In this document: positions 7,943 through 30,925 of the stretch, in pieces
Numbering within the stretch: the stretch's first letter is position 1
Layout of the letters: each line of letters begins with the position of its first letter
NCBI GenBank assembly: GCA_017499595.2
Contig: CM039008.1
Coordinates: forward strand, 372,001-436,000
Origin: Psilocybe cubensis
Lineage: Eukaryota
DNA: 64,000 bases
Direction of reading: 5' to 3'
Notes under the pieces: model-generated
The model's input: the letters and a program-made list of their open reading frames with translations, nothing else
Database searches by the model: none
What the model was told of the DNA's origin: nothing
Program-made: the position numbers and the translations under genes

Positions 7943-8289
7943 CACGCCGGACAAAAATGCTGACCAGTTAGCCTGGGTGTTGTCCTGACCAGTGACGTGA
8001 CTAGTACCGTGACCAATTACATAGTGTCACACATATGTTGTCACGCTAATTCATTATTAGTAGGCTCGACAATAAATGGCAAATTACTTGATTGTCTTGC
8101 GTTGTAATTCAGTGCGGAGTAAGAATAAATATTAAACAATCAAGTAATATGTCATTTACTATTGATCCTACTAATAATGAATTAGCGTGACAACATAATG
8201 TGTGACACCATGAAATTGGTCACGGTACTAGTCACGTCACTGGCCAGGACAACACCCAGGCTAACTGGTCAGCATTTTTGTCCGGCGTG
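7943..8289. mobile_element. Non-autonomous foldback element/MITE, 347 bp, possibly CMC/EnSpm(CACTA)-type
   Basis: ~150-bp near-perfect inverted arms beginning CACGCCGGACAAAAATGCTGACCAGTTAGCCTGGGTGTTGTCCTG and ending ...CATTTTTGTCCGGCGTG; ~40-bp spacer; 3-bp target duplication AGA (7940-7942 and 8290-8292); no coding capacity. Confidence 0.9.
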
Positions 8290-10137: not shown

Positions 10138-10391
10138 TCACTGAGCTTGACATGCTCAGCAGTCAACCAGACATTGCCTTATTGCGTATTCCAGGCCAGA
10201 CTAATGGGTTGATCAGAAACGTGCCAGGTGGTGATAGGGAGGGGTTCCTGTGTCATTCGCACTTGAATGCAGATGGATATCAGAGGTAGTCGTCTTACGC
10301 CTTCTTTTACAATGAACACGAAGCAGAAGAAGACCAGTGAACTTTCGAGAAAATCTTGAAGAAATTAAGACCAACATCAACTAAACAGACA

Positions 10392-10830
10392 GTAGATTAC
10401 AATGCAATGTAATCCAATACAATAATTTTTTAGTCTTACAAATCCACCCAATTTTTGGGGCCCGGTTTACAATGTCAAGCAATAGTTTTATTAGGTTAGA
10501 AAGTGGTCATAATTATTCAATTGAAATTATTCAGTGTGAAATGCTACATTGTATCGTAACATAGGATACAATGCCCACTACAATGTACCATATGATGGGG
10601 GTTTAATGAATTCATTGAAACCCTGAATCTAGTACTTTCAAAAAGGTAACTACATTGTGGTGTATCTTCTCGATTCATTGAATGTCTAACATTATACAAA
10701 TATGTAGTATCTAATCATACCTTTGTTTGTTCACTAGTAAAATTGTTATGGGTAAGGATTTGAATGTTGCATTAAATAGGACTGGTATCGGAAACCTAAT
10801 TTTTGCTAGTATTCCGACATCACTGTACTC
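10392..10830 (+). repeat. Left terminal/subterminal inverted-repeat region of the KDZ element
   Basis: AT-rich with recurring TACAATG/CATTGTA; reverse complement of 10547-10573 matches 24991-25017 at 24/27; 10672-10682 matches 24879-24889 exactly. Confidence 0.75.
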
Positions 10831-10864
10831 GGATTGCATCCTGCGCTGGCATCAATAGAGGTAC

Positions 10865-11760
10865 GCGGCCTGCCGCGCGCGTCGCTTACAGGCTATGCGC
10901 ACCAATTGGAAACGCGCGCATTGGACAGTTTCCGACCCGCCGCTGCCGCGCGCGGCACTGCGCACCAATTGAAAACCTGCGCATCTGCTAGATTTCCGAC
11001 CCGCCGCTGCCGTGCGCGGCGCTTACACGCTATGCGCACCAATTGGAAACGCGCGCATCGGACAGTTTCCGACCCGCCGCTGCCGCGCGCGGCGCTTACA
11101 CGCTATGCGCACCAATTGGAAACGCGCGCATTGGACAGTTTCCGACCCGCCGCTGCCACACGCGGCGCTGCGCACCAATTGAAAACGTGCGCATCTGCTA
11201 GATTTCCGACCCGCCGCTGCCGTGCGCGGCGCTTACACGCTATGCGCACCAATTGGAAACGCGCGCATCGGACAGTTTCCGACCCGCCGCTGCCGCGCGC
11301 GGCGCTTACACGCTATGCGCACCAATTGGAAACGCGCGCATTGGACAGTTTCCGACCCGCCGCTGCCATGCGCGGCGCGGCGCACCAATTGAAAACGTGC
11401 GCATCTGCTAGATTTCCGACCGCGCGGCAGAGCTTACACGCTATGCGCACCAATTGGAAACGCGCGCATCGGAGAGTTTCCGACCCGCTGCTGCCGCGCG
11501 CGGCGCTTACACGCTATGCGCACCCATTGGAAACGCGCGCATCGGAGAGTTTCCGACCCGCCGCTGCCGCGTGCGGCGCTGCGCACCAATTGAAAACCTG
11601 CGCATCGGACAGTTACCGACCCGCCGCTGCCGCGCACGGCGCTTACAGGCTATGCGCACCCATTGGAAACGCGCGCATCGGAGAGTTTCCGACCCGCCGC
11701 TGCCGCGCGCGGCGCTTACACGCTGTGCGCACCACTTGGAAATGCGCGCATCGGACCCGC
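10865..11760 (+). repeat. GC/CpG-rich subterminal tandem array; 73-bp and 64-bp monomers forming a 210-bp higher-order unit
   Basis: Monomer gcttacacgctatgcgcaccaattggaaacgcgcgcatcggacagtttccgacccgccgctgccgcgcgcggc; unit starts at 11021, 11094, 11167 (short variant) and 11231; about 12-13 monomers. Confidence 0.95.
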
Positions 11761-12049
11761 TATCACATTCAACTTGTATTTAGTTCATTGTACTTCTAAA
11801 TTATGTGATCTGTTCATTCTTATTTCACTTGATTTCATAGCATACATAGAAGACAAATGATATAATTTGATCATACAGACACAGTATGCTACTACTCAAA
11901 CTTGAACATGTTAACATCTAAAAATTTATCAAAGTATGCAGGAGTGAATACCAAACCACTCTGTTCCAGTTCCGACACAGCTAGCAACGGGGTAGTTTCA
12001 ACATGTACATCGTTATGAATTCTAAGAATTTGTTGAGGATATAACAAAG

Positions 12050-13660
12050 TTACATACCACTCTCCGACTGGAACTCGCTGCCACTACCCTCATCTTCTGC
12101 AATATCTGACTGCCTTCCTGTTTCTTCGTCCAAAGTTCCGCCCAAGTTGTCATCCGACCCCGCATTTGTGCTGCTGTCATCGTCGAAAAGGCCTAATGCT
12201 GCATCCAAGCTGTCATCCGACTCGGAACCAAAAAGGTTGTCGTTTGCGGCTTGGTTTATAATATCGTTATCCGATTCGGAGTCACTGGAGTTGCCATTAC
12301 TGGAGACTGGATCCGCCGCTTCTGTAAAATCTTCAACGCTGGAAAGCGGGACCTGATCTGCAACTTCTGCAAAATCTCCGACACTGGAAGGCGGGCTCCC
12401 TTCGGTACCGTACTTGAAGTAGTCGGGTTGGGTGAATGTGGCGGAAGGCAATGTTTGGACGGCGGATATGGCTGCAGAATCAAAGGTGCCGACCTGAGAC
12501 AAAGAGTCTTCAGTGGAATATTTAACCTTTTGCCCTTCCTTGAGATTTTTTGCGTATCCTGTATGTTCTTTCGGATTGCTGACCTCGGAAATGCTGAGGA
12601 CATCTTTGATGGTAAGAGATTTCCCCCAAGTCCACTTGTCGGATGGGGGCGTCTGCTTTGAATTCATCAAATCGGCGGGTATTTCGGGTTTGCGGGTTTT
12701 GATGTTGTCGCGTCCATACGTTGCCGCACCCTCAATAGCAGCATCGTCAAGTTCCTGGCTAAGCTCGTAGAGCTTGAAAAATCCCATTGCACGTCGCGAA
12801 ATACAAGCAACTTGGTTGGAGGCTACATCGGCAAGACATGTAGAGAAATTCTTGACACCTCTGAACTGAACAAGCAGATCATCAGAAAGATTACGGAATT
12901 TAGCACAACAACCACAGTGTATGTCACCGGGTTTAGAGTCGGGAACAATCTGAGTCGGATAAATAAAGTTTGTCTGACCAGGGGCATCGGGAGGGGGATC
13001 AAGAGTAGACAGCTGCCCATGACGTATACCACTCGGCTCAGCGGGAGGCAGCGGTTTGGTGGAATCCTTTGCTTTGGGGAAACTTTTAGCATACTGTTCA
13101 CCATGAAATTTCATGATTTTCCCAATGGTAAGATGATTTAACATTCTTTCGGGACTTGGGGGGGTATTACGAGTCCACCAGTCATAAAGGTATTTTTTGA
13201 CACCTTTCTCAAAACCCTGGTCATTGTCATCCGCGGCCAAAGAGGGCAAAAGATCGGGGTGAAAGTCCATTGGAAACTCTTCGGGTAGACATGCAAAAAG
13301 AGATTCGGAAAGAAGGCGAAGGATGTATGGGATATCCAGCACCCAACCAACTGCATATGCTTGACCGACAACTGCCATAATGTAGTGCTATTGAGTACAT
13401 GAGATTTATCAGTGATAAGATGATGATCATTTCTGATAACACACCAATTCTTCCTGAAGGCAACGTTGCATCCATCCATGGTTGTCCAGACTGGCGTCGA
13501 TGATATGAATTAAAGCCTCGCGAAGTCTAGAAGCACCACAATATATGATTCCTTGCGCCAAAACCTGCTCGGCCTTTTGGGACCCAACTTGGATGTCAAA
13601 GGGGTTGAACGGTCTGATCGTGATCAAGGGTTGGTCAAAAAATGACTCGGAGTCACTCAT
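12050..13660 (-). CDS. Transposon accessory protein of unknown function (~520 aa, 2 exons; Cys/His cluster, acidic tail)
   Basis: ORF 13427-13660 joins ORF 12050-13378 through a GTGTGT...CAATAG intron (~13391-13444); 'IHCGCCAKF...C...C' cluster; D/S/E-rich C-terminus. Confidence 0.7.
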
Positions 13661-13692
13661 GGTGGTTGCAGATTAAGGACAAAAATTTCAAA

Positions 13693-16600
13693 TTACAAAG
13701 GTTTGTAATGTTTATTTACTGATCTAAAAGATCGATCTGATATCAAAGCCAAATGATGCCACATTTGCGCTTTGCGATGTGCATATGCTATTGCACCCGG
13801 CAAAATTGTCGGGTTATCCTCGATAGCCGACTTCCAGGTTGCACTCTTGTGTAAGAAATATGTCACGGTCCATTGCATCTCATACCTAACCAATGTACTC
13901 TCCTCCTTCCATCGTTGAAAGTGAGCTCTGGCTCTTAACCAATGTACTCTTTTAACTGAAAGGTTAATAGAAATTAGCGCTCAACAAAAATAGAATCAAT
14001 ATGAGAAATTAACTGACATTCAAGCACTGTTGCCGGATCAGCGTTATCGCCGAGAGAATTCGGATCGGCATTGTCGGGAGCGTCGGGATCCAGCACCCAT
14101 CGGGGACCTAACCGTTGATTTACTGAGTACCATATCCATGACAAGCGGAAATTTGTCGATCCTGGTATGTTCGGGTTAAGAACAGCGGTACTTGATCGGA
14201 CATCATCTTTGGTGAGGACCCGAAACTCCCGAAGAATATTGTTGTCGGCACCAAGTTGAACTAGGCAATCTCGACATCGTGAGTAGGCTTGTGCATGATG
14301 TGAAATGCGTTCCCTCAACTCCTTTGCTGCCGCTTGTCCTCGTGTACGCACACCTTTTCGTGGGCCCTTTCGTATGACATCGGAATACTGAAATGACCTC
14401 TCTGCAATAAGTTCTCGAATTTGATTCAGGTGTCCTCGAGCTTGTGAAATCCTAGCATGTATTTCAGATGGTGCATGAATGATGTCCACATTCCCATTAG
14501 AAGGTAGGAATATTGTTTGAAGGTCAATAGGCTCATACACCGCTGAACCCGATCCCGGCGCCAAAATGTCTTCCTCATCCTCCCAATCTATAAAGAGTTG
14601 TTCGGGTATTTCATTCCCTTTGGAAGCTGTCGGAAGAACTCCCGCGTCATTTTGCAGAATGCTTAGTTGAGCCATTAATGCTTTTAAAGTTTCGCGTAGC
14701 TTTATTAATTTGTTACGTTCCGCAAGCCGATCATGGTTAATAAGGCGTCGGGCTCTCATCCGAATGTCCAATCTGTGTGTATAACTATTAACACCATGAT
14801 AAATAATCAAGACTGATTTAAACACATACTGTCTTTCTTCCACAACTACTGCAAATTGTATCCATGACTCAATCGGGTTTAGAGGTCGATGCGGAACTGC
14901 ATCGGGAGTGACTGTGGAGGTTCCAGGCCTTTTTGCTGCATATATATCCATAACCTTTGGGTCCACCAACCTCTTGGACTCAGCTTCTTCAATTTGTTGT
15001 TTCCATAACTTTACTGCATCGGGGTCAGCTCCTTGGGTTAAGTTTACAAATGCTACCCGATACTGCTCTTGTTTTTCTTCAGCCTCATCATGCCTACGAC
15101 AGAGATATTTTGTGATTCCAAGAGCCTTTTTGTGATTAGAGTCGGAAGCATGATCGTCTAGCAACTCTGCACGGTGCGCCAGAGTTGCTGTGCGGGCGGC
15201 GGGAGATATATGATTCAAATCCGCCCATAGTGATTCCAAAATTTCTCCGCAGACGCAAGCGGCACCAGGAATGAAGGTTGGTGCATATCTAAAGAAACAT
15301 TCATCTTTATGAGCATGTACGTGAAACATGCCAATTGCCCGATCAACTTTGAGTCCTTTGGGGAGTAGATGCCCAATACGCTTGAGAAGATAAATGATAT
15401 ATTGACAGATTATGTCGTAGATAACCGCTAGGCCTTGGTCGGGATCAACACCTGTTGATTTTAATGCTGATAGAAGGGCAAAGTCGACATTCTTTTGTTG
15501 CTCTCCTTTAAAAAGATCGACAAGTGAATTGGGGGCGTAACATCCATGCCTTGCACAGGCAACCCCCACAATGCCTGTAACATCGCAGGATTTTGATGAT
15601 AATAATGAATTTTGGATTGCCCGGAATGTGTTTTCACATGGTGCTCCCTGAAGAGGGTAGTTAGATATTCCACCTGTTATTTATCAAATACAAAGCTCTT
15701 ACTGTCAATGCTTCAATGGCGGATTTCAAAAATTCACCATACTCCATTCGATCGGGTGTCATTCCACCACCTTCCGACAACCATATATCGCGGGATGGTT
15801 TTTTAGATCGGACATGGTCTGCTTTGAAGTTTCCGTCCGCTACAAAAACACGCTTGTAGACCCAGCGATTGGGGTCATCTTTCCAGTTGGCACTCAAATT
15901 GACACCAGGCTGTGGACATGCTGGGCAGAAATTGGCTAGTTCTCCCCGCCCAACCGACAGTGCACTTTTGCCGTTATGGCCTCCGAATCCTGCCCATTTT
16001 AACTTTTTCATCCATCTCCATAAGCGGGACATCCGTCGAAATTCATTATAAAGATTGACAATGGTATGCGGGGCAGTCGGATTGGTGACACGTCGCAATA
16101 GGGAGTAGAACTGGTAAGCAGAAGACTTGAGTTCTAAATTTGAGAGTCGAAAATAATCTAATAATTGTGCGGAAAATAGTGTGCGGATTTGCTGGAAACT
16201 TGTCGGTAGCAATCGGCATGCCATGAGATCTAAAGGAAGCTGCCCCGACCCATGGCAAACGCAAGATACCATAGCCAAATGATGAAGGCCATTAGTATGC
16301 ACAACTCGCACATAGGAATTGTTTAACCCATCAGCAAAGGGGGCATTTCCAGTGAAGGTAGAGTTGGGATCCCGATTCCCGACCGTTGGTGGCGAAAGAT
16401 ATGCTGGCATGAATCGGACATCGGAGTCGGCATCACCTACCTCTGCTTCATCATCACCATCTTCAAATCCCTCCAAATTTGATGGATCCTCCCGAAGCTG
16501 GTTGAGATACTCCTCAAACTGATCATCTGTAATGCCATCTGGATTTTGGGTATGTTCTGAGTCCTCCTTAGTATCATCCATAAAAATATCATTGTCATAT

Positions 16601-17438
16601 CTTGAAGGATATGAAGGTGATTCAGATGTCGGGTGTGCGACGCGCAGTAGAGCCTGTTCTTCAAAGTCTTTCCGCTCTTCCAACTCCTCAAGAAGTTGCT
16701 TTTGAAATGTTAGAGATTCGCATAGAGGAGGAAATTCTGCAGAATGGTGAGATATTAATAGATAACATCCCACCTCCCATAGCTCTGCTGATCGGAAATA
16801 GGCACCATTCCAACGCTCTATCCTATGCATTGGATTAACCTGATGCTCATGTCGTATGCACCGTCTGCATAATAGAGATGGAATAGAGCAATCTCGACAC
16901 CTCCATACCGAGATGCAATCGTTATGGCATTGTGTGCAGATGGATGGTGCATTAAGCGCCCTCGGCGCTTCTCGACTCAGCAATGCACCAAGTATATCAT
17001 CCACTCGTTCCACAAATTGCAGAATGTAGTCTCTTTGAGTCTTTAACGTATAAGATAAGCCAGCAACTCCATTTAAAACTTTGAAATTACCTTTCGAGGT
17101 CTGGAGTCTACAGGTCTTCCATCGTCGCGGTGGTCATCAGTGTTGTGTATGTCATAATCACCTTCATAGCCTTCCGATGTATCCTGATTGTCTATATGCC
17201 ATGGATCACCTGTATTACGCCTCTGTGGAACTGCCAATGAGACTGGAACAAGGAAAGTCAGTGATTGTAATAATAGCTTGCATTTTTTGATACCTTTTAC
17301 CAAGTCCGGAACCGTCCTTCCAGTTCTTGTTGTACGAGTACGATTTTCATATGTTACTGCGTCTGCTGCATCAGCATCATCCTCATATAATGTCCCCTTT
17401 TTGGATCTTCTTGAACTTTTGGTTCTCTGTGACGGCAT
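13693..17438 (-). CDS. KDZ (Kyakuja-Dileera-Zisupton) transposase with CxC2 cysteine cluster; multi-exon, apparently intact
   Basis: CxC2 region 'CRDC...CRRCIRHEHQVNPMHRIERWNG', 'VVHTNGLH', 'CVCH', 'TLFSAQLL'; 'CPACPQPGVN'; catalytic-region motifs 'VADGNFKADH', 'GVACARHG', 'KGEQQKNVD', 'YDIICQY', 'FHVHAH..EC', 'GEILESLWA', 'LDDHASDSN'; C-terminal 'LSWIW' and 'RVHWLRARA..RW.EE..LV..EM'. Confidence 0.93.
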
Positions 17439-17634
17439 AGAAAAGGAATAGAAAGAGCAGAACAAAGTACAAACGTGAAGACTCTTAGGTTCCTTATCAT
17501 GAAATCGATTGGATCTTATTCCTGAATGGAGGTTGTGAAATTTGTCATACAGGCCTGAAAAATATAAATAGGGAAACCTTCTAGCTAAGCTGAATTCTTT
17601 ACACCCCCATAAAAAGGTATAAGCAGCCCAGAAC

Positions 17635-19625
17635 ATGTCGGAGATAGATGAGCAAGATGTTCTAGATGTTTTTCAGACCCACGATAGGCGCAAGAGGGTG
17701 TACAATAGTCTGGAGAGAAAGGAAATAGACCCTTTCAAAGAAGAATATTTTGCGGCAACATCTAATCTTGAACGCAAACAGGTTGTATGCAAGATTCTCC
17801 CTAAACTATTTAATATTTGGGTTACGACAGGAAGTAGACGTCTGTCTGCAACTCAGGAATTTGCACAAAAAGAGGCAAAGGTATGTTACTATTGGTTACT
17901 TACCTGACAATATTTACCAATTCCGATTACTGCCAGCGGCTACTTGGTTGGATTCGGAATAATTGGAGAGCACCTCAACCAACCGGTGCTGAACTCAAGG
18001 GGAAAAAGCACAAGCGTACTACTGTGCTATGGCGAACCCGACCCGACGATGTCTATAAGGAAATTGCCTCAATCCTTGGACTTGAACATGCCGACAGTAC
18101 TACACCTTTGGCATTTGAAACCCGCTCCCGTGCGATGGGCAATATTATTAGCCGCATGACTCCGCAAGAAAAACGAGCTCTGGATAGGGAAGCGGAAACA
18201 TTGAATACAGTTGAGTATACGGACGAGCAGAAACTAAAGTAAGTCATTAATATTTAACAGTACACTAGCTCTAAAATATTTATAGGAGGGGGAACAAATA
18301 TGCTTTTAAGAGGCTTGATGAGGCTGCTACTGTTCATTGGGCAGAAATGGGTTTGATGAATATAACATTTGTTGCAAGGCTCAATGAATCGGGCCAGCTC
18401 TCTGTCCGAGTGTGAGTCATGTTTTTCCACATTCAAACACATGCACTCACCAATTTGATAGTCATGATCAAGTTGCTAGTACACTTGGTGTTGTCTCCAC
18501 TCTGTTTGAGGACCAGAAGCCCGATGAAGTCACCCAAATGAAGAGGATGGTTGCTACATATGTTCGTGGGTTGTTAAATGCTAGAGACAGAATACGGAAT
18601 GGGACCCGCAATGAAAACACTACTGAAATATCTATCCTTGACCAAGATCCCGACGGATTTCCGCTTTTGCCATCCAACTTTGATGCAAGTAAATACAACA
18701 AGGAACAGTTGGAAGAGTTGTATCGTATGTATATGGGGCAGAACTACTGTGAGTTGCCAGTCATTATTTTCTTCAAAAGGGATACCTTTGCCTAACAATT
18801 GAGTAGTTTTAGCCACCAATGGCCGTTCTAAACATGCACCATTTAATGCTCTTCATGAATATCAGTCAACATTTATTTCACCAGAATATTTACCCCCAAA
18901 GGTCCGCCTTAATGCACCCCGCTCAGTCAGTTTAGATGACCTCCGACGTATCATGGACCACATTTACGCCCGACAAGAAATATTTCCACCCAGCCAGGTC
19001 TTCCGCTTCCGCAAGGTAAAAAAATTTAGGAAGGGGGATGAAACTACCCCAACAAATTACCCCGACGAAGACTTTCAATCTGATGCAGAGAAGCGCCGGG
19101 TTCCACCTAAAAAACCAAAAAAAGCAGCTAAAAAGAAGAATACTGCCGCACCTACGAAACCCGCACCTCTTGAATCTGCACCACTCCGCATTGAAGACAT
19201 GCAAGGTGCTTCTCAATTGGTGTCCTTTGATAGTTTTCAGCCAGTAGAAGCGCCCTCAAAAGCACCACCTCCACCACCTCACACAAAGATCAATATGCAG
19301 GATATTGACCCAGTTTTGTTGAATGAAAGTCAAGCAAATCAAGTTATAATTCACACACCCGCACCCGCACCCGCACCCGCACCTGCACCACCCGCACCCG
19401 CACCACCCGCACCCACACCCACACCACCTGCACCCGCACCACCTGCACCTGCACCCACACCACCTGCACCTGCATCGGCACCTGCGCCCACGCCCGCACC
19501 TGCACCACCCGCACCTGTACCCGCACCACCTGCATCCGCACCCGCACACGCACCCACACACGCACCCGCACCCGCACCCGCACCCGCACCCGCACCCGCA
19601 CCCGCACCCGCACCCGCAGATGCAC

Positions 19626-19656
<31 letters not shown>

Positions 19657-20029
19657 TGCACCCACACCCACACCCACACCCACACCCGCACCCGCACCCA
19701 CATCCACAGCACCAACTCTAGTGATTGGTACTAATGGATTGCTTGATGTTAGTATTCTGGAGCCTGGGCGGCATACCAACAAAAACAAATCTTCCCGACC
19801 CAAACCACGTCCGAGAAAAAAGCCAACCACTCCCGATGAGATTGCACAGGCTGAAGAGTCAAGACGTTTATTGGAAGAGGCGCGGCAGATCGAGGCATCA
19901 TTGCATATACCAGCACATGCAGATAAGCAAGCAGAAAGTTCAGGTGTGCGAAGAAAGCATAGAGAGGTAGATGAGGACCTTATTCTCTCTGGAAAGCGGG
20001 TACGCCGTCAAAGACAAAGAAGCCATTAG
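17635..20029 (+). CDS. Transposon accessory protein, multi-exon, with Pro/Ala repeat and basic C-terminus
   Basis: Chain of ORFs (17635, 17883, 18412, 18953) separated by short GT..AG introns; (PA)n/(HA)n tract; K/R-rich NLS-like segments; divergent from the transposase. Confidence 0.75.
19354..19705 (+). repeat. Coding hexanucleotide repeat (GCACCC)n and variants
   Basis: gcacccgcaccc... encoding PAPAPA, HAHAHA and PTPTPT. Confidence 0.9.
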
Positions 20030-20145
20030 ATATTCTATGTATCTTAGTATCATGTTTTCACAATAAGAAAGTTTGGGCAAGCAGGAAAAATATATTGATA
20101 GAGATACAAAAAAAACCAGCCTGCACAATCAACCACTACACAATT

Positions 20146-23655
<3,510 letters not shown>

Positions 23656-23924
23656 TTGTAACAGCTAAGAGGGGGGAGTGTGGAGTATGTGTTAAATGTG
23701 TTGATTGGGGGGTCAGGGATGTATGTGGAGAGAAGCAAGTTGCACAAGTTGCACGGTACCTCTGAATTGACCCGATACGCTGTAAGTCGAAAGGTCATGT
23801 GATTGTTCCCAGACGTGCACCTATGATTGCCTCCGCAAATGCTTGGCGTGCAAGGGTATATCATGGCATCTCTTGTGATTTTTCGAGGCATCCTATCTTT
23901 TCCTCCCAAAGCCACTGTCGCGTC

Positions 23925-24569
23925 ATGTCCGATTTCAATCCCAAGCCTCAGACTGTTGAATCCAATGTTCCCAGTGGTTATACTGTTATTGAGGGGCCCG
24001 GGGGGAAGAAGTACCTTGTCCCCCTTTTTGTGGTGCCCTCTCTGGAATATTCAATGTCCGCTTATCACAAAAAAGCGGAAATGAAGACTGAAATCGCCAA
24101 TGCTGACGGTCTGGTAAGTAATCAGTTTTAATTGATTTTTATATTGAAAGTATTTACCATCCTAAGGATCCCTATCTTGAACGCTTACAGACCTACAACA
24201 CTATTGCGGGAACGCTGCACGCACCACCCGACCCGGTATGTCATTAAAATCCAAACCGCGCCACTCACACACACTAATGATCACTTCTGGCAGCCGCTTA
24301 CCGACAAGGAGCTTCTCCGACAACATGCTGAGGTCCAAGCACTTGTAGAAAAACTTGGCATCTCATATCGCGACGCTGCTCACCGCCTTTATATGGCCGA
24401 AATGGAGAAGTTGAAGGTCGCCGACATGCAAAGAAAATCATTCCAAATCTTTGAGAAGCGGGCGACTAACACCCTCAAGGGGATTGCAGGGCGCCATAAT
24501 TACAAGAGCAATTATTTTATGATGTACAAGAAAATGAAATCCGAAATATCAAAGCAGAAGGAGCAGTAG
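23925..24569 (+). CDS. Small transposon accessory protein, 3 exons
   Basis: MSDFNPKPQ...ADGL, GTAAGT intron, then ...PLTDKELLRQHAEVQALVEKLGISYRDAAHRLYMAEMEKLK...; divergent from the 20146-23655 gene. Confidence 0.7.
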
Positions 24570-24749
24570 ATACATAGCTAGTGATACATAGTTAGTTTCT
24601 TTAAAACAAATTATCACTGTTCCTTGCCTCAGACATGAGTGTAATGTGAAGTACAATACTCCCTAGTAGGTCAAGTTTGAAATTGTACTTGACTCGTTGA
24701 CATGAACCCTTGACTTCCAGCACCAAGCGGTATGCACATATTCAACTGT

Positions 24750-25050
24750 GCCAAACCCGATCATCAATTGTCGGTATTACTACTTAGAAATTTCCGCAGA
24801 GTACACTAAGACCCGACCTCACTGTATATTCCGACAATCCTACTAGATGTCAGCTAGAAGTCCTATTAATTACTGCTGTTCAATGAATCCACGCTATATG
24901 CTACATTGTAAATTCCCTGTTTTGGATAGTGTATATTCGCTGCTTTAATGAATTCTTTGAATCCGTATAATGCATCACAATGTATAGGTTCATTGTATCG
25001 TATGTTACTGTACAATGTTACAGTGCTATGTGAATTATTATTCATTTGAG
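24750..25050 (-). repeat. Inner part of the right inverted end of the KDZ element
   Basis: Colinear inverted similarity to 10510-10830 (ttcaatgaatc; aatgaattc; cattgtatcgtatgttactgtacaatg; tgtcgg..tact..tttccg). Confidence 0.7.
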
Positions 25051-25104
25051 TACAGTAGTAGGGACATGTTATGCATGTACATTGAAAGCGCATGCAATAT
25101 CGGA

Positions 25105-25285
25105 CTAGTGTGCGTGCACGTTCTCCTTCCCGCCCACAGACCAGTGCGGTGCGCCGAGGATGGGGTGCTGATACCCCTGCTGTGCATGAGAATGCTGCTT
25201 GTGCACCTCCTCCGTGACCAGCGCATCCTCTCCGAGCAACACACTCTCATCCACAGGCTTCATCACATCTGCCTCTGCCTGCGCT
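25105..25285 (-). pseudogene. Probable captured 3' end of an unidentified gene
   Basis: GC-rich, codon-like frame ...AEADVMKPVDESVLLGEDALVTEEVHKQHSHAQQGYQHPILGAPHWSVGGKENVHAH* ending in TAG at 25105-25107; no start codon context. Confidence 0.4.
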
Positions 25286-25320
25286 TTTCAGCCAACGCAG
25301 CTCACATCTCACAGCAAAGC

Positions 25321-26176
25321 TTACCGCGTCGGAAACGCCCCCAGTAGCTTCACACTCCACCCGCACTCGAGGCGGCAGCGGCATTGGCATTGGCAGCAGC
25401 AGTAGCATTAGCGCTTGACCCCGTTCGCCACCTCTCCAGATGATGAAAGTACGTCCCATATTGCGACAGACACTGGCCAATACTCTGTCCGAGACCCGCC
25501 ATGCCCATTACTGCTCCGGGTCCCGCTGCACCTGTTCCAATACCTGCGCCGGCTGCACCTCCACCACTTGTGCTCGCGCTTGTACCTACTCCAGCACCCG
25601 TGCCTACAGCAGCACCAGCGGATGCAGACGCAGACGTAAAGGTAGATGAAGAACCACCAACACCACCCAAACCCAGCGGCACACCCTCGCCCGCCTCCAT
25701 TGCTGCTGCCACTGCCTCACTTTCAGCACCTTCACTGATCATCAACTCCGAGAGCGCGAGCCCATTTGCACGTGCGCCTTGAACACCGTGGTCTACCTCA
25801 TTATCATTGTCGTCATTGTCTGAGGAGTGCGAGTGGTCAGAGAGCCACGCGCCGTTGTTGGGGAGCATGATGACCCCAGATGCATGGTCGTAGCTAAGAC
25901 GGTGGTTGAGCGCGTGCAGGTGTGTATGCGCGTGGTGGGGTGTTGGGTGGGAGTGTGGCCGTTGTTGGCATTGGCCTGATGGTCCAGCGGCGGGAGAGGA
26001 GGTGGATATGGATGCGGCGCCTTGCCATGGATCGAACATCGCGCTTGGGTCCGGAAGGATTCCTCCTGCACCACCATTTCCGTTTGCATTTCCACCAACA
26101 CCTACACTACCAGCCACTCCCGCGCCCTCCTGCAACATCCTTCTCAACCGTCCACTCACACGGCCGCACGTTCCTT
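25321..26176 (-). pseudogene. Captured C-terminal fragment of a basidiomycete hypothetical protein
   Basis: Begins ~10 bp after the HSP60 stop with QGTCGRVSGRLRRMLQEG, then RLSYDHASGVIMLP and YGTYFHH; LLGAFPTR* is reached only by a frameshift; no promoter space or ATG. Confidence 0.55.
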
Positions 26177-26187
26177 GTCAACCCCCT

Positions 26188-27962
26188 CTAAAATTCACCC
26201 ATGCCGCCCATACCACCCATACCCCCAGCACCCGCCTTCTCCTCCTCGGAGAATTGACGACGCACGCCTCGCTCGTGAACAGCAAGCTGGCTACGCCGCT
26301 CGCATCCACCAACGCCGTGCGCACAACTTTCAAGGGGTCAACGATACCCTCGCGCACCATGTCGACGTACTCGCCCTTGGCGGCGTTGTAGCCCCAGGAG
26401 AGCTTGTCTGCGCTGCCGTAGCCCGTTGGGCCTGCAAGGAATGTTGAATAGTTCCAGACGTACATTGTGTACAACACCACTCACCCTGGTTCAAAAGAGC
26501 ACCAACGATAACAGCACTCTTCTCACCGGCATTTATTCAGAATCGCACGCGTAGGCTGCGTAAGCGCACGCCTGATAATACCCACACCCAACTCCTGATC
26601 AAAGTTGGCCGTACGAATAGGCTGGGCATCTCCACTCACAGGGCTGCTCGTGCTCGCAGCCTGCGCACTCGCCGTCGCGAGCTGCAACGACGCCTTGAGG
26701 AGCGCAACACCGCCTCCGGGGAGGATACCCTCCTCGACAGCAGCGCGGGTCGTGTTGAGCGCGTCGTCGTACCTGTCCTTCTTCTCGCCGACCTCGACCT
26801 CGGATGCACCGCCCACCTTGATGACAGCTACACCTCCGCTCAGCTTCGCGAGACGTTCTTGAAGCTTGCTGCGGTCAAAGTCGCCCGTCGTGGGGTCCGC
26901 AATCAAGGCACGGATCTGCTCGCACCGTGCAGCAATCTGATCCTTCGCACCTTCACCGTTGAGAATGATCGTGTCGTCCTTGGTGACAGTGACGCTTCCA
27001 GTCGAACCGAGCATCTCCGCTGACGCACGCTCGAGCTTGACATCGAGCTCGTCCGTGAACACAGTTCCGCCAGTGAGAATGGCAAGGTCACCGAGGATGC
27101 TCTTGCGGTTGTCTCCGAACCCAGGAGCCTTGACAGCGCACACCTGGAGCTGACCACGGAGCTTGTTGAGGATGCAGGCAGCAAGAGCCTCGCCGTCGAC
27201 GTCCTCTGCAATGATGATCAGTGGGCGGCTGGCCTGCGCCGCGGCCTCGAGGGCAGGGAGGATATCCTGTAGGGCGGAAATCTTCTTCTCAGAAAGCAGG
27301 ATAAAGGGCTTCTCGAACTCGACGCGTTGGGACTTGGTGTTGGTGATGAAGTAGGGTGAAATGTAACCACAGTCAAAGCGCATACCCTCCGTGATCTCAA
27401 TCTCGTCCTCAATCATCTTTCCCTCCTTCACAGTGATGACACCCTCCTTTCCGACCTTTTCCATCGCCTGAGCAATCAATCCTCCAACGTGGGCATCACC
27501 GTTCGCAGAGATAGTGGCAACTTGTGCGATTTCGGCGGTTGTTGTGATAGTTTTGGCGTGTGCGGAGAGAAAAGAAACGACGCGGTCGACGGCAGCCTGG
27601 GATCCACGGCGCAGGTCCATGGGGTTGCATCCAGCTGCGACGTTCTTGACATCTTCTGAGTAGATGGCACGCGCAAGAACAGTGGCGGTTGTCGTGCCGT
27701 CTCCAGCAATTTCATTTGTTTTCGAGGCAACATCTTGAATCAGGCTGAGCAAATCTACTTAGCGCTCTGCTCGAAAACAGTGAAAGTGGGAAGACGTACC
27801 GAGCGCCCAGGTTCTCAAACTTGTCTTCACACCGTCTGTCGAAAACCAAACCCTCGTCAGCAAACACTCTCCCAGAACCACGAAACAACGCACCCTTGGT
27901 GATTTTTGGTCCACCGTACGCCTGCTCAATGATCACATTGTGACCCTTTGGTCCAAGTGTCG
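26188..27962 (-). pseudogene. HSP60: 5'-truncated, frameshifted mitochondrial chaperonin HSP60 (GroEL family) copy retaining introns
   Basis: [43 protein letters not shown] and GGMGGM tail; N-terminus missing; deletion after DGV (~27830); extra base at ~26533; missing base at ~26246; three GT..AG introns retained. Confidence 0.9.
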
Positions 27963-28893
27963 CACATCGATGCAACTATCCGAGCTATGTGAAATAGGTG
28001 CCAGCGGTTTTGACGTGGACTCAGAGATGTTTGTCAAACAAGATCAGCAGATGTCGGAGCTTCAAAATCAAATCAAGCGGAGCCTGAACTCACTTGAAGT
28101 CCCATTGCAAGCAAAATCATGTCCACTTTGTTTGCTTTTTTCTAACCACCACCATTCTCTGCCCACGGATATACATGGGGGCAAGGTACGTGTAGTCATC
28201 TTTGTAAATTGATGTCTCCTCCTCGCACTAACATCATACACATCTTCCTTTAACCAAAACAAGTTAGTAGATTATACTTTTTTGGTGAGTAATAGATGAT
28301 TCTCACTCGGTGCTCATCAGTACTCACCACATCCTAGGACCAACTATCTTGAACACTTGGATGAAGGGTCAGTATTTTAGTCTCTATTTAGTGTGCTTTA
28401 CACTACTAACATTACTTGTGAAAGGTCCCGGACAACCAGACATTTGGATACAGACTTGAAAGCATGTACATGTAAGTATATGCGCTTTTTATTGGTTTTT
28501 GATTCATTTTTTGATGCATATATTTTGGTTCTCCATTGCCCGTACCACTTCAGCTGTTCCGAATGCTTGAAGCTGCCTTTTCCCGTGCGTCTTCACCATT
28601 CACACCTTCTTTGTGTCATTGAGTGTAGGAATTGTCAGCTTTAGGTTCTGTTTTGGTGTTGAGGGTCCGGAGCCGTGCACGCTAGCATGCGGGTTCAATG
28701 TGTCTTATATAGTTGCACTATTTTTATGAATAAATAATCTATTTTTCATTATGATTTTTGTGTGCTCCAAAAGGCATTACAATTGCAATACCCAGAAATA
28801 TTGTAAACCTCAAATTAATTTATTCATGCTGCAATATTTCCGTTTTCTTACAACATTTCAAGAGCGTTGTAATGCAGTGCGAGAATTTCGAAG

Positions 28894-28934
28894 AAAAAAA
28901 TATTTTATTGGGTTTACAATGCTTTGTAATCTAC
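28894..28934 (-). repeat. Right terminal inverted repeat of the KDZ element
   Basis: Reverse complement GTAGATTACAAAGCATTGTAAACCCAATAAAATATTTTTTT aligns with 10392-10430. Confidence 0.75.
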
Positions 28935-29546
28935 CCGCACTTTTTATGATGAAATCAAACTAATTTGTTACAAATTTCCTGGAAAGAAAAAATAATGACA
29001 AAACATATGAAGTGACTTTTAAAGTCAGATTGAACAGTGAAAGGACTATCTGTAAAGCAATTCCAAGTGGCTTTGGCAGCCTGCGTAAACTTAAATAATT
29101 TTCACATCGTAAACGAAGCAAAAATACTTCGTTCACTATTTTCTAAAATTAGATAGTAGCTACGCGTTGGATCAATTCCGAAATCGCTCTGTGGAATTCA
29201 CAGTCAAGATAGCAATGTTGCTTTCATACCAGGGGTATTCTGTTTACGGGGTGTTGCTACTCAATAACTCTCCACAACTTTACCGTTGAGAGAATTCCAG
29301 TAGCAGACTGATACCATCTTGATAAGTCAAGAAAGATAAAGATGTCAATACAATGCATGAGAAGTACACCTCGAATTCCATGAAGCTTGATAATCTTTCA
29401 ATTATAAATAGGTATGAATGACTGGCGACAGCGAGCGTGTTAGAAAGTCGTCTTACCGAGGTCTGGTAATTAACATGTAGCAAAGTTGGATGTATAAATA
29501 ATGGACCTGTGCGGAGGCAGACCCCATACAGTCATCTTCCCCAAAG

Positions 29547-30298
29547 ATGCGTATTCAACTTCCTCTTCTTGCTCTCACCTACTCGCTCTTTGTATGTGCA
29601 AAGCCTTTGGATATAGGTAAATTCATAGCCCAATGCATCTCAAGTTGCACAGTTTACATTTTCGACTTAGCCCAGCGTGACGGTGCAGCGCCCGTGGACA
29701 ATGTCTGTTCAGAAATGCCTGAATGTAAGACGCGTTCATGTGTATACCTCTTCAAGCTAACATAAACTCGAGGTAAAATTGAATGCTTGTCGGGAAGGAA
29801 GGAAATTGTTCCCAATGATTGTCATGTCATTTACGATACGCTACTGTTTATCAGCCAGTCTAGCAGTGAGTTTGGCTTTTCAGCTTAGCTACTGGAGTTG
29901 TGACTAAGATCATTCGGTACCAGGTCCCACCAATACAGTGACTGTGCGTCGTTACTACCTCCTTCATCATCTAAACTCTGACAAATACTTAGGGCGGGAA
30001 TAACATTACCATGACTTACAACACATGCACTTCTTTCTTCTCTAACACTGGCGAGGATTCCATCGAGTATTGCCGACTTACATGGGTATGCGCATGACTT
30101 GCACATACTTTATTGCTCTTATCTGATGACAAACTATTAAAATGCAGGCCTCTAAACTAAAAGCAATGACTTCGATTTGCGAGTCTCGAGGTGCAAGATG
30201 CGCAGGATCGGATACTAACTGGTTCCTTGAGTATGTGCATTATCCCATTAACATACGAGAATCTAGCTTACTTTGGAAACAGATTTAAGCACTCTTAA
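29547..30298 (+). CDS. Small secreted cysteine-containing protein, many short exons
   Basis: TATAAATA at ~29493; signal-like MRIQLPLLALTYSLFVCAKP; exons with Cys (NVCSEMPE, DCHVIYDTLLFISQ, ICESRGARCAGSDTNWFLE) separated by ~50-bp introns. Confidence 0.7.
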
Positions 30299-30925
30299 AG
30301 CAAAGCTACTTATCGTTGGTGACCCCAGTGTGATAATCATCTTCCCGCATTACATCTGGTCGTTCTGTTGTCAAGTCACGATAAATATAGCTTTGATTGC
30401 GCAGTCAAAGAAATGTATTTTATATTTCCGATGTGTAGAGGTTATTGGCATAAACTACAGAGAGATGAAATATATCATCGTCCGCTATGAACGAGGTATT
30501 TATTTGTGTAAACTTCCAAATGGACATTAAGCGCCCAACAAGTCCGCCATGCAAATCACGCGCGCTTCCATCCCAAACACCTATCATTTCTTATTTTTTA
30601 CTATTGTTTTTTGCACAACTCTTTGACTGCAATGAAAATTCGAACACCAGTAGGCGGTCAGTGCGCAGCGCTAATCTCGTAGCGATCTTATCTTATCTAC
30701 TCCGCACGTGTTGCCCGTACCTGAATCGTGGGTTGGAACCGCGACATGAACAATACACGACTCCGCACCCCATTGCAACTTGGCATTGCTTTTGACCTCC
30801 TTTCAACGACGAACGAACCCGCCCCGGAAGAATTTAGAACTGTGAAGATATTAACACACTATCTGTAACCCAGACATTGAACACGTATCCCAACCGGCGG
30901 TCTCCCTACGGCCCCTTACTCCAAG

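What the first reader, a model, noticed from the sequence alone, without database searches (positions are those of the whole stretch)
25050..28890. Pack-type gene capture: host-gene fragments stacked inside the right end of the KDZ element
Seen: the left end is one continuous block, but its inverted counterpart is split into an inner part (24750-25050) and an outer part (28894-28934). The ~3.7 kb between them holds abutting minus-strand fragments: truncated HSP60, a hypothetical-protein C-terminus starting ~10 bp after the HSP60 stop, a third 3' fragment, and further coding-like scraps at ~28000-28260 and ~28540-28700. Established: Pack-MULEs, Pack-CACTA and Helitrons acquire multiple intron-containing gene fragments. 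Inference: this is a 'Pack-KDZ' acquiring host DNA at a subterminal site, which I do not know to be described for this superfamily.
Basis: partly seen in the sequence, partly recalled or inferred. Interest (0 to 1): 0.82.

Follow-up and report, generated by a model that had tools for sequence, protein, structure and literature searches.

The report
Gene-fragment-carrying transposon split by a nested KDZ
A small non-autonomous mushroom transposon that carries pieces of at least three host genes (including most of HSP60) was later hit by a 14.5-kb KDZ transposon, so the gene stack belongs to the small element, not to the KDZ element's own end.

Summary
The sequence features are real, but the architecture is nesting, not a split KDZ end.

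**The KDZ element.** It spans 10532-25032. It has CA..TG termini, a perfect 7-bp target duplication (AATTATT) and CxC2 and KDZ transposase domains, which fits the Kyakuja type.

**The outer element.** The KDZ element sits inside an older element of about 4.1 kb (10375-10531 plus 25033-28951).
- The outer element has its own ~57-bp inverted ends (CATCA...TGATG).
- In another strain, 136 raw reads join 10495-10531 directly to 25033 onward. That is the empty site. That strain lacks the KDZ body but holds the outer element's parts at about 3-14x.

**The cargo.** The AT-rich backbone encloses GC-rich minus-strand cargo, followed by a spliced plus-strand unit of unknown origin.
- A 197-bp 3' piece of one gene.
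- The C-terminal ~270 codons of a conserved basidiomycete protein.
- HSP60 residues 56-597, with introns kept and three frame-breaking lesions.

Three separate RNA contigs match these pieces and run on unlike the window at the piece boundaries where that could be seen. Other copies are internal-deletion derivatives of the same stack.

**Verdict.** This is a Pack-type element in an agaricomycete. Mobilisation by a Kyakuja-type transposase is possible but unproven. It is a new member of a known kind, of moderate interest.

The parts
10368..10374 (.). Left flanking 7-mer of the outer element (AGACCAA). Possible decayed target duplication with 28952-28958.
   Evidence: Read directly from the sequence. 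5 of 7 positions match AAATCAA and both differences are transitions. My estimate of the chance of this is about 0.03, so it is suggestive only.
10375..10531 (+). Left arm of the outer non-autonomous element. It starts CATCA, and its terminal ~57 nt are inverted against 28895-28951. GC is 30%.
   Evidence: I1 (57 nt, 70%), (41 nt, 85%, E 1.2e-5) and the gapped alignment. Its last 37 nt are contiguous with 25033 onward in the reads of X14.
10525..10531 (.). Target-site duplication, copy 1 (AATTATT), of the nested KDZ element.
   Evidence: It is present once in the empty-site reads (loose end before 25033, 136 reads, agreement 1.0).
10532..25032 (-). Nested autonomous KDZ element, Kyakuja-like, 14,501 bp. 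Termini are CAGTGTG...CTATGTG. It has imperfect ~140-nt subterminal inverted repeats, a ~900-bp tandem array at 10856-11756, and transposase frames at 13974-17133 on the minus strand.
   Evidence: Pfam KDZ E 2.5e-38 and CxC2 E 2e-15. Subterminal repeat. Right terminus at 25032: 92 X14 reads run on into diverse sequence, and the X1 and X7 contigs end there. 7-bp TSD and CA..TG termini as reported for Kyakuja in PMC12730594.
25033..25039 (.). Target-site duplication, copy 2 (AATTATT).
25033..25072 (+). Outer-element backbone, continuing 10531. GC is 27.5%.
   Evidence: Empty-site reads. Composition break at 25072/25073.
25073..25269 (-). Captured fragment of gene 3: its last ~54 codons, the stop (25105-25107) and ~32 nt of 3' UTR.
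   Evidence: RNA contig record 8 (1463 nt) matches only this span (27 other letters and 3 gaps in 197) and runs on unlike the window on both sides. Frame with a stop. No Pfam hit.
25318..26159 (-). Captured fragment of gene 2: the C-terminal region of a conserved basidiomycete protein (motifs HRLSYDHASGVIMLP and YGTYFHHxER).
   Evidence: RNA contig record 9 (4251 nt) matches with its positions 2747-3598 only (90 other letters, 10 gaps). In X1 a one-copy diverged contig (38 of 368 letters, 9 gaps) lies beside a window-identical contig. 44 homologues. No Pfam hit.
26186..27961 (-). Captured HSP60 pseudogene fragment: residues 56-597 of 597, with three introns kept and the first 55 codons missing. 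Three frame-breaking lesions: a ~25-nt deletion near 27828-27836, one extra base near 26530, and one missing base at 26247.
   Evidence: RNA contig record 10 matches at 60 other letters in 1398. RNA joints at 27744/27800, 27827/27894 (33 letters between) and 26432/26539. Other copies carry an extra G behind 26247. The native mRNA runs on unlike the window behind 27961.
27962..28668 (+). Plus-strand transcription unit of unknown origin ('gene 4'). Introns are confirmed at 28283-28337, 28368-28424 and 28472-28553. It has no homologues.
   Evidence: Spliced RNA contig record 13 with GT..AG joints. Exon and intron reading. No Pfam hit. No homologues among near-length or longer proteins.
28669..28951 (+). 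Right arm of the outer element, ending ...TGATG at 28951. The terminal ~170 nt belong to a high-copy family.
   Evidence: 435 and 139 X14 reads run on into diverse sequence behind 28951 and 28952. Depth of bin 28707-28973 is about 14x the flank in X14 and about 50x in X1 and X7. Most family members diverge inward at 28782 (286 reads) or 28800 (169 reads).
28952..28958 (.). Right flanking 7-mer of the outer element (AAATCAA).

Best explanation
There are two transposons, one inside the other.

(1) The outer element is an old non-autonomous DNA transposon. It is about 4.1 kb once the nested element is removed (10375-10531 plus 25033-28951). It has ~57-nt imperfect inverted ends, CA..TG termini and an AT-rich backbone, and it is a Pack-type element. 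Between its arms it carries, all on the minus strand and abutting:
- a 3' piece of gene 3;
- the C-terminal region of a conserved basidiomycete protein (gene 2);
- an intron-containing HSP60 copy that lacks its first 55 codons.
These are followed by a plus-strand spliced unit of unknown origin.

The pieces were copied as DNA from separate host genes. The most likely route is template switching during repair of the gap left by excision, which is the model proposed for Pack-MULE and Pack-CACTA. They were probably taken in more than one step, because HSP60 is about 4% diverged from its parent while the other two are about 11-14% diverged. The copies then decayed into pseudogenes. Members of the family lost internal parts by deletion, including a 'short form' that joins 25120 to 28033.

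(2) Later, a 14.5-kb autonomous KDZ element of the Kyakuja kind inserted 157 bp inside the outer element's left arm and duplicated AATTATT. This pushed the outer element's left tip next to the KDZ left end, which made the KDZ right end look 'split'.

Shown: the nesting, the termini, the TSD, the fragment identities and the existence of deletion derivatives.
Inferred: the capture mechanism, stepwise capture, and mobilisation of the carrier by a Kyakuja-type transposase (shared CA..TG termini, a possible 7-bp TSD, shared TACAATG subterminal motif).
For: **Nesting.**
- A perfect AATTATT lies on both sides of 10532-25032.
- In X14, 136 reads whose letters before 25033 match window 10495-10524 at 29 of 30 (agreement 1.0) give the empty site. 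X1 and X7 each have one such contig.
- X14 depth is about 0-4 over 23100-24700, against about 39 on the flank. It is about 121 in bin 24969-25235, 113-223 over 27906-28706, and 556 in bin 28707-28973.
- KDZ and CxC2 domains are present.
- Kyakuja elements make 7-bp TSDs and have CA..TG termini (PMC12730594, passages).

**Outer ends.**. Reads running on behind 28951/28952 into diverse flanks: 574.

**Cargo comes from separate genes.**
- Three different RNA contigs (1463, 4251 and 1573 nt) each match one fragment. They run on unlike the window at the fragment boundaries where this could be seen.
- Gene 2 has 44 homologues.
- No gene-2 homologue was found in any of 80 fungal HSP60 loci from metagenomes. 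Of those, 15 (13 distinct) have at least 5 kb downstream of HSP60. Positive control: 44 of 44 family members hit the window.

**Capture as DNA.** The HSP60 introns are retained (RNA joints).

**Composition.** Backbone 27-33% GC against cargo 57-59%.

**Deletion derivatives.** Their breakpoints lie inside the fragments.
- 25120->28033: X1 contig of depth 252; 48 X14 reads.
- 25437->26665: 15 X14 reads, with 11 filler letters.
- 27703->28005: one X7 contig; 10 X14 reads.

**Amplification.** In X1 the window-identical cargo contigs have depth about 100 and an HSP60 contig 310, against 50 for the flank.

**Shared motif.** TACAATG occurs 21 times against 9.9 expected. Nine of the 21 lie in about 1 kb of element ends.
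Against: - The outer element's flanking 7-mers match at only 5 of 7, and a 2-bp AA/AA duplication would fit equally well. Neither its TSD length nor its superfamily is settled.
- The outer ends share no BLAST-detectable similarity with the nested KDZ ends beyond the 7-mer motif. No autonomous partner was found.
- The left terminus at 10375 rests on the inverted repeat alone, because no reads were laid there.
- The parental loci could not be mapped in this genome: no assembly is held. Linkage of the parent genes in this species is therefore excluded only indirectly.
- Copy numbers from contig word depth are approximate. Read depth over HSP60 may be thinned by the tool's filter for conserved, human-like reads (text).
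- The difference in divergence between fragments could partly reflect different constraint on the parent genes, or gene conversion.
- Gene 4 may be the element's own gene rather than a capture.
Confidence: 0.72

Rival explanations
1. One KDZ element runs from about 10375 to 28951, and its right end was split when host DNA was acquired at a subterminal site ('Pack-KDZ' in the autonomous element).
For: The inner and outer inverted-repeat matches to one contiguous left region are real. Both sets of ends carry TACAATG motifs.
Against: - A perfect 7-bp TSD brackets 10532-25032.
- Empty-site reads join 10495-10531 to 25033 onward: 136 reads in X14, plus contigs in X1 and X7.
- 25032 is a repeat terminus with diverse flanks (92 reads).
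- X14 holds the outer parts at about 3-14x but lacks the KDZ body.
Confidence: 0.03
2. One-step capture. A single contiguous host segment holding HSP60, gene 2 and gene 3 as neighbours was duplicated into the element. Later internal deletions then trimmed it into abutting fragments.
For: All three fragments share one orientation. The family demonstrably suffers internal deletions (joints). The parental loci of this genome could not be examined.
Against: - No gene-2 homologue lies within the sequence held around HSP60 in any of 80 related loci. Fifteen of these have at least 5 kb downstream and 21 have at least 5 kb upstream. The search method had 44 of 44 sensitivity on the window.
- Divergence from the parents differs by a factor of about 2.5-3: about 4% for HSP60 against about 11-14% for the other two.
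Confidence: 0.12
3. The carrier is Pack-type but does not belong to the KDZ/Kyakuja group. It might instead be a member of the CACTA/EnSpm-Plavaka group, which also has CA..TG termini but makes 2-5-bp TSDs. This rival concerns family assignment only and is compatible with the main explanation.
For: - CMCT lineages share CA..TG termini and make 2-5-bp TSDs (PMC12730594, passage).
- The two bases flanking the outer element are AA on both sides.
- It has clear ~57-nt TIRs, whereas the described Kyakuja families are reported without TIRs.
- There is no sequence similarity to the nested KDZ ends.
Against: The flanking 7-mers match at 5 of 7, with two transition differences. The TACAATG subterminal motif is shared with the nested Kyakuja-like element. 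TSDs of 3, 4 or 5 bp do not fit the flanks.
Confidence: 0.3
4. The 2.9-kb cargo is itself a separate gene-capturing element, such as a Helitron, that inserted into the outer element. On this view the short form is the ancestral state.
For: A short form that lacks exactly 25121-28032 exists in X1 and X14. Helitrons that capture genes are reported in Pleurotus (PMC4289320; listing and abstract only).
Against: - The left breakpoint (25120) lies inside gene 3's fragment. That fragment's match to its RNA contig runs from 25073 to 25269, so the short form retains 48 nt of captured DNA and must be a deletion.
- As I recall the Helitron signature (5'-TC, 3'-CTRR), the segment ends show it on neither strand, and there is no A|T insertion site (sequence read).
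- The other variants have different breakpoints.
Confidence: 0.03

Closest known systems
Pack-TYPE transposons of plants (Pack-MULE, Pack-CACTA) and Pack-TIR elements of metazoans (PMC8903248, PMC6379663, PMC8277862; listings and abstracts seen)
   Same: A non-autonomous element with inverted ends. It encloses several fragments of unrelated host genes, copied as DNA with introns retained, abutting one another and decayed. Family members differ by internal rearrangement.
   Different: The host is an agaricomycete fungus. The ends are neither Mutator-like nor CACTA, and the TSD may be 7 bp. The carrier has itself been interrupted by a 14.5-kb autonomous element. Mobilisation and expression of the cargo were not shown here.
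Kyakuja DNA transposons of Agaricomycotina, e.g. Kyakuja-1_LB and Kyakuja-2_LB (PMC12730594; passages read)
   Same: The nested element has a KDZ transposase with a CxC cluster, a 7-bp TSD and 5'-CA..TG-3' termini. The outer element also has CA..TG termini.
   Different: - The described families are reported without TIRs, and were selected for carrying a TET/JBP gene.
- The nested element here has imperfect ~140-nt subterminal inverted repeats (69%).
- No TET/JBP hit appeared in the 20 frames scanned.
- Neither this paper (one use of 'non-autonomous', in another sense; 'captur' only for TET/JBP genes) nor my four other literature searches turned up a gene-fragment-carrying non-autonomous Kyakuja.
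Cryptococcus KDZ1, KDZ2 and KDZ3 (PMC11343200, PMC12810828; passages read)
   Same: Large (9-11 kb) mobile KDZ elements that carry extra genes beside the transposase.
   Different: They make 8-bp TSDs and have 236-241-bp TIRs. They carry whole extra genes rather than stacked fragments, and the papers do not describe them as nested in a Pack-type carrier.
Fungal transduplication: hAT-borne histone H3-like gene in Pyrenophora tritici-repentis (PMC3538342, PMC6710886) and Helitron captures in Pleurotus ostreatus (PMC4289320). Listings and abstracts only.
   Same: Transposon-mediated copying and amplification of host (housekeeping) gene sequence in a fungus.
   Different: Different transposon classes (hAT, Helitron), and for Pyrenophora a different phylum. 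Here several truncated fragments are stacked in one small TIR element.

Membership tests
Pack-TYPE transposon (outer element) | Terminal inverted repeats at both ends | tested here: met
   10375-10431 against 28895-28951: 57 nt at 70% ungapped; 41 nt at 85%, E 1.2e-5; gapped alignment.
Pack-TYPE transposon (outer element) | Target-site duplication flanking the element | tested here: inconclusive
   The flanking 7-mers AGACCAA and AAATCAA match at 5 of 7. A 2-bp AA/AA also fits. No other copy could be read.
Pack-TYPE transposon (outer element) | Non-autonomous: no transposase of its own | tested here: met
   The only Pfam family reaching its curated cut-off in the frames of 25033-28951 that I scanned is Cpn60_TCP1. 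Without the nested element it is 4.1 kb, filled with gene fragments.
Pack-TYPE transposon (outer element) | Internal fragments of host genes whose parents lie elsewhere | tested here: met
   Three RNA contigs each match one fragment and run on unlike the window where this could be seen. A one-copy diverged genomic contig for gene 2 is present in X1. HSP60 residues 56-597. Gene-2 family of 44 homologues. The parental loci themselves were not mapped, because no assembly is held.
Pack-TYPE transposon (outer element) | Several copies at different sites (evidence of mobility) | tested here: inconclusive
   The ends are high-copy with diverse flanks (574 reads at 28951/28952). Cargo variants occur in three runs, and the window-type cargo is at about 2x the flank's word depth in X1. 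The insertion sites of cargo-bearing copies were not seen.
Kyakuja / KDZ (nested element 10532-25032) | KDZ transposase domain with a CxC cysteine cluster | tested here: met
   PF18758 E 2.5e-38 and PF18803 (CxC2) E 2e-15.
Kyakuja / KDZ (nested element 10532-25032) | 7-bp TSD and 5'-CA..TG-3' termini (PMC12730594) | tested here: met
   AATTATT on both sides, and termini CAGTGTG...CTATGTG. The empty site is seen in reads.
Kyakuja / KDZ (nested element 10532-25032) | Transposase placed in the Kyakuja clade rather than Dileera or Zisupton | not tested
   No tree was built. The assignment rests on TSD length and termini only.
Kyakuja-mobilised non-autonomous element (outer element) | Ends shared with an autonomous Kyakuja element | tested here: not met
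   No similarity to the nested KDZ ends beyond the TACAATG motif. Other possible partners could not be searched, because no genome is held and the metagenome scan gave 0 hits.
Kyakuja-mobilised non-autonomous element (outer element) | CA..TG termini and a 7-bp TSD | tested here: inconclusive
   The termini are met (CATCA...TGATG). The TSD matches at 5 of 7.
Helitron-borne capture (segment 25121-28032) | 5'-TC and 3'-CTRR ends with a subterminal hairpin, inserted between A and T (features recalled, not taken from a call) | tested here: not met
   The segment begins TTCTCC and ends GATGTTT, with G on both sides. Its left breakpoint lies inside a captured fragment.

The most novel reading that the evidence does not exclude
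This is the first Pack-type family of the KDZ/Kyakuja superfamily: a small CA..TG element with a 7-bp TSD, mobilised in trans by Kyakuja transposases. On this reading it has repeatedly picked up, stacked and amplified pieces of housekeeping genes in a mushroom-forming fungus, and it still gives rise to transcribed chimeric units. KDZ elements would then be an exon-shuffling engine in Agaricomycetes.
Probability: 0.3. Interest if true: 0.6.

Novelty: new member of a known kind. Interest (0 to 1): 0.45.

Why it matters
Gene-fragment capture by cut-and-paste transposons is well documented in plants and has recently been reported in animals. In fungi the reports I found involve hAT elements in an ascomycete and Helitrons in Pleurotus.

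This locus is a clear Pack-type example in an agaricomycete. Its carrier's termini resemble those of the little-studied Kyakuja group, and a family of deletion derivatives is seen across strains. It offers three things:
- a concrete family in which to test whether KDZ-type transposases mobilise non-autonomous elements and shuffle exons;
- an independent confirmation of the 7-bp TSD and CA..TG rule for a Kyakuja-like element, from an empty site;
- a warning for annotation. The extra HSP60 copies here are transposon-borne pseudogenes, and the apparent 'split end' of a giant element is simple nesting.

Tried and rejected
- **Whole genome.** None is held for this window, so parental loci and other copies could not be mapped directly.
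- **Earlier notes of this scan.** Nothing by place, by sequence (twice) or by words.
- **Metagenome scan** for the core shared by the two outer TIR arms: 0 hits.
- **Gene 4, first exon.** No homologue among longer or near-length proteins. Only sub-threshold Pfam hits.
- **Gene 2 fragment.** No usable hit in the protein atlas. No Pfam family for it or for 19 relatives.
- **TET/JBP gene in the KDZ element.** None in the 20 frames scanned. Spliced genes could have been missed.
- **RNA holders.** No RNA holder was listed for the stretch as a whole. Run X10 is RNA only by the tool's guess. Whether the captured copies themselves are expressed was not resolved.
- **Horizontal origin of the GC-rich cargo.** Considered and dropped, because same-species RNA contigs match it at about 86-96%.
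- **Helitron origin of the cargo, and a composite of two whole elements.** Rejected. See the rivals; in addition, each arm carries only one end.
- **Junction microhomology at the capture junctions.** Not assessable without the donor sequences. The short-form deletion junction shows none ('both' = 0), one variant shows one shared letter, and two variants carry 11 filler letters.
- **Supplements of the cited papers.** Not consulted. TSD tables and family sequences there may bear on the Kyakuja comparison.


Full report
**What is in the sequence.**

The window is fungal. A KDZ transposase (PF18758, E 2.5e-38) and a CxC2 cluster (PF18803, E 2e-15) are encoded on the minus strand between 13974 and 17133. 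The best protein matches of the HSP60 fragment are Agaricales and other agaricomycete chaperonins, at 86-87% identity.

- 24879-25018 pairs with 10682-10546 (141 nt, 69%, E 1e-6).
- 28894-28934 pairs with 10431-10392 (41 nt, 85%, E 1.2e-5).

The coding pieces are also real.
- **HSP60**, minus strand (Cpn60_TCP1, E 1.7e-38).
- **A 275-codon frame** that opens 10 nt after the HSP60 stop. It has 44 homologues at E<=1e-3, and these end shortly after its conserved YGTYFHHPERR motif.
- **A 60-codon frame with a stop** at 25108-25287.
- **Plus-strand exons** between 27962 and 28668.

**The 'split end' is a nested insertion.**

I laid two sets of genome contigs (X1, X7), one set of presumed RNA contigs (X10) and raw genomic reads of another strain (X14) on 23100-31100. 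Four results decide the architecture.

1. **Empty site.** In X14, 136 reads that fit from 25033 onward carry, just before it, a 30-letter consensus (agreement 1.0). This equals window 10495-10524 at 29 of 30 positions. X1 and X7 each have one contig of this kind. So 10531 and 25033 are neighbours wherever the KDZ element is absent.
2. **Target duplication.** The 7-mer AATTATT stands at 10525-10531 and again at 25033-25039, and once in the uninterrupted form. It is therefore the target-site duplication of an element running exactly from 10532 (CAGTGTG...) to 25032 (...CTATGTG).
3. **Repeat terminus at 25032.** 92 X14 reads, 3 X1 contigs and 4 X7 contigs run on behind it into different sequences.
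4. **The two parts occur independently.** X14 has depth 0-4 over 23100-24700, against about 39 on the unique flank (28974-31100). Yet it has about 121 in bin 24969-25235, 113-223 over 27906-28706 and 556 in bin 28707-28973.

The internal control for my reading of 'before' and 'behind' is HSP60. The RNA contig's loose letters behind 27961, reverse-complemented, encode the VDVLANAV stretch that precedes TLGPKG in the Laccaria protein.

A 7-bp TSD with 5'-CA..TG-3' termini is what Kojima (2025) reports for Kyakuja. Zisupton and a TET-carrying Dileera family make 8 bp, and the Cryptococcus KDZ elements make 8-bp TSDs with ~240-bp TIRs (PMC12730594, PMC11343200 and PMC12810828; passages read).

**The outer element.**

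With the KDZ element removed, 10375-10531 plus 25033-28951 is a 4.08-kb unit.
- Its tips are inverted: CATCA... at 10375 and ...TGATG at 28951, about 57 nt.
- The right tip is a sharp, high-copy repeat boundary. 435 and 139 X14 reads run on behind 28951 and 28952 into diverse sequence.
- Bin 28707-28973 is about 14x the flank in X14, and about 50x in X1 and X7 by contig word depth. Word depth is an approximate measure.
- Most members of that family diverge inward at 28782 (286 reads) or 28800 (169 reads). The window's element is therefore a minor subfamily.
- The flanking 7-mers are AGACCAA and AAATCAA. They match at 5 of 7, with two transition differences. My estimate of chance is about 0.03. 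AA/AA would equally fit a 2-bp TSD.
- The motif TACAATG occurs 21 times in the window against 9.9 expected (0 of 100 shuffles reach 21). Nine of the 21 lie in the ~1 kb formed by the ends of the two elements. Beyond this motif the two elements' ends are not alike.

**The cargo.**

The backbone is 27-33% GC. From 25073 the sequence jumps to 57-59% GC. Reading the minus strand from 27961 down:

- **HSP60.** Residues 56-597 of a 597-aa homologue. Three introns are retained, shown by the RNA joints 27744/27800, 27827/27894 and 26432/26539.
  - It differs from the RNA contig at 60 of 1398 letters.
  - It is broken by a ~25-nt deletion, seen as 33 RNA letters standing against 66 window letters that include the 57-nt intron.
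  - It has one extra base near 26530.
  - It has one missing base, seen as an extra G behind 26247 in other copies and in the RNA.
- **Gene 2.** 25318-26159 matches positions 2747-3598 of a 4251-nt RNA contig (90 other letters, 10 gaps). In X1 a window-identical contig (depth 102) lies beside a diverged one (38 of 368 letters, 9 gaps; depth 56). I read these as the captured copy or copies and the native gene.
- **Gene 3.** 25073-25269 matches the middle of a 1463-nt RNA contig (27 other letters, 3 gaps) and ends in a stop at 25105-25107.

Each RNA contig runs on unlike the window beyond its fragment wherever this could be seen. For gene 2's far side this is inferred from the contig's unaligned length, because that loose end was not among the rows shown.

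Then, on the plus strand, comes 27962-28668. A spliced RNA contig confirms three GT..AG introns there. This unit has no homologue and no Pfam family. It may be a fourth capture or the element's own gene.

**Are the parents one locus?**

No assembly is held for this genome, so I tested synteny in relatives.
- The HSP60 fragment retrieved 80 fungal loci from metagenomes (758 kb).
- Of the 54 loci with at least 79% identity, 15 have at least 5 kb downstream of the match (13 distinct at 97% identity), and 21 have at least 5 kb upstream.
- tblastn with 45 gene-2 family members, the gene-3 frame, the gene-4 exon and the KDZ frame found nothing in any of the 80 loci.
- As a control, the same gene-2 queries minus the window's own hit the window in 44 of 44 cases.

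This argues against native adjacency but does not exclude it in this species. The unequal divergence (about 4% against about 11-14%) also points to separate capture events. Different constraint on the parent genes, or gene conversion, could contribute to that difference.

**Variation among copies.**

All the variants seen have breakpoints inside the fragments, so they are deletion derivatives of one ancestral stack.
- 25120->28033: X1 contig of depth 252 and 48 X14 reads. It keeps 48 nt of gene 3's fragment.
- 25437->26665: 15 X14 reads, with 11 filler letters.
- 27703->28005: one X7 contig and 10 X14 reads.
- 25324->25372: one X7 contig and 7 X14 reads, with 11 letters between.

In X1, HSP60-like sequence sums to about 6-11x the flank's word depth, of which about 2-3x carries the window's letters ('other letters' table). 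In X7 it is about 3-10x and differs from the window's letters at most of the positions listed. X14 read depth over HSP60 is about 1x, but the tool warns that reads of conserved genes may be filtered, so I draw no copy number from it.

**Mechanism.**

Shown:
- a Kyakuja-like KDZ element inserted into the left arm of an older element and duplicated 7 bp;
- the older element carries DNA-level copies of parts of at least three genes;
- it has decayed and spawned deletion derivatives.

Inferred:
- capture by template switching during double-strand-gap repair after excision, as proposed for Pack-MULE and Pack-CACTA (recalled; PMC6379663 abstract only);
- stepwise stacking;
- trans-mobilisation by a Kyakuja-type transposase.

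**Novelty.**

My searches found KDZ elements with whole cargo genes, Pack-type elements in plants and animals, hAT transduplication in Pyrenophora and Helitron capture in Pleurotus. They found no gene-fragment-carrying non-autonomous Kyakuja/KDZ element. The searches were:
- KDZ / transposon / gene capture;
- Pack-MULE / fungal genome / gene fragments / non-autonomous;
- Kyakuja / non-autonomous;
- transduplication / basidiomycete / DNA transposon;
- Pack-TYPE / fungi.

The library is limited to open-access texts, and supplements were not seen.

I file this as a new member of a known kind (Pack-type transposon). Membership of the carrier in the KDZ group is unproven.

Noticed in passing
window 10856-11756: A ~900-bp GC-rich tandem array (units of 73, 137 and 210 bp, 79-91% matches) lies just inside the KDZ element's left end. 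It may be a subterminal binding-site array or a satellite.
   Followed up: no
window 18800-23500: The KDZ element's interior holds long GC-rich low-complexity frames on both strands, with CACCCG x57 (19356-19699), 18/54-bp repeats (20416-20568) and 27/135-bp repeats (22631-22989). None had a Pfam hit, and no TET/JBP domain was found in the 20 frames scanned.
   Followed up: partly
window 7943-8289: A near-perfect palindrome: 92-nt arms at 97% with 163 nt between them, enclosing a second pair of 62-nt arms at 90%. It looks like a MITE or hairpin. An 18-nt stretch at 8099-8116 matches 28864-28881 in the outer element's right arm at 17 of 18 (E 0.94, so possibly chance).
   Followed up: no
window 44095-45085 and 55495-56441: Three collinear inverted-repeat pairs (59-178 nt, 71-81%) about 10-12 kb apart suggest an inverted pair of diverged paralogous genes. 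By my recollection the shared stretch reads like an aldehyde-dehydrogenase C-terminal motif; this was not tested.
   Followed up: no
window 9461-9615 and 34264-34418: A 155-nt inverted repeat at 70% spans the whole composite transposon locus, with 24.6 kb between the arms. It is unexplained.
   Followed up: no
proteins P0052, P0053, P0058, P0060, P0066, P0067: One agaricomycete species in the protein database (Ephemerocybe angulata) has six separate full-length HSP60 entries (604-608 aa), listed with five different longest-contig lengths. HSP60 amplification may therefore recur in this group, and a transposon-borne origin is worth checking.
   Followed up: no
window 26855-26935: A variant HSP60-like sequence, in which 79 letters are replaced by 23, appears both in X14 DNA reads (14 reads) and at low depth (9.5) in the presumed RNA run X10. 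The change is out of frame, so a transposon-borne HSP60 pseudogene may be transcribed.
   Followed up: no
window 10511-10542: The KDZ insertion site lies in a 14-15-bp near-tandem repeat (AATTATTCA... twice), so the first bases of the KDZ element resemble the target sequence upstream. This may be coincidence or a target preference.
   Followed up: no
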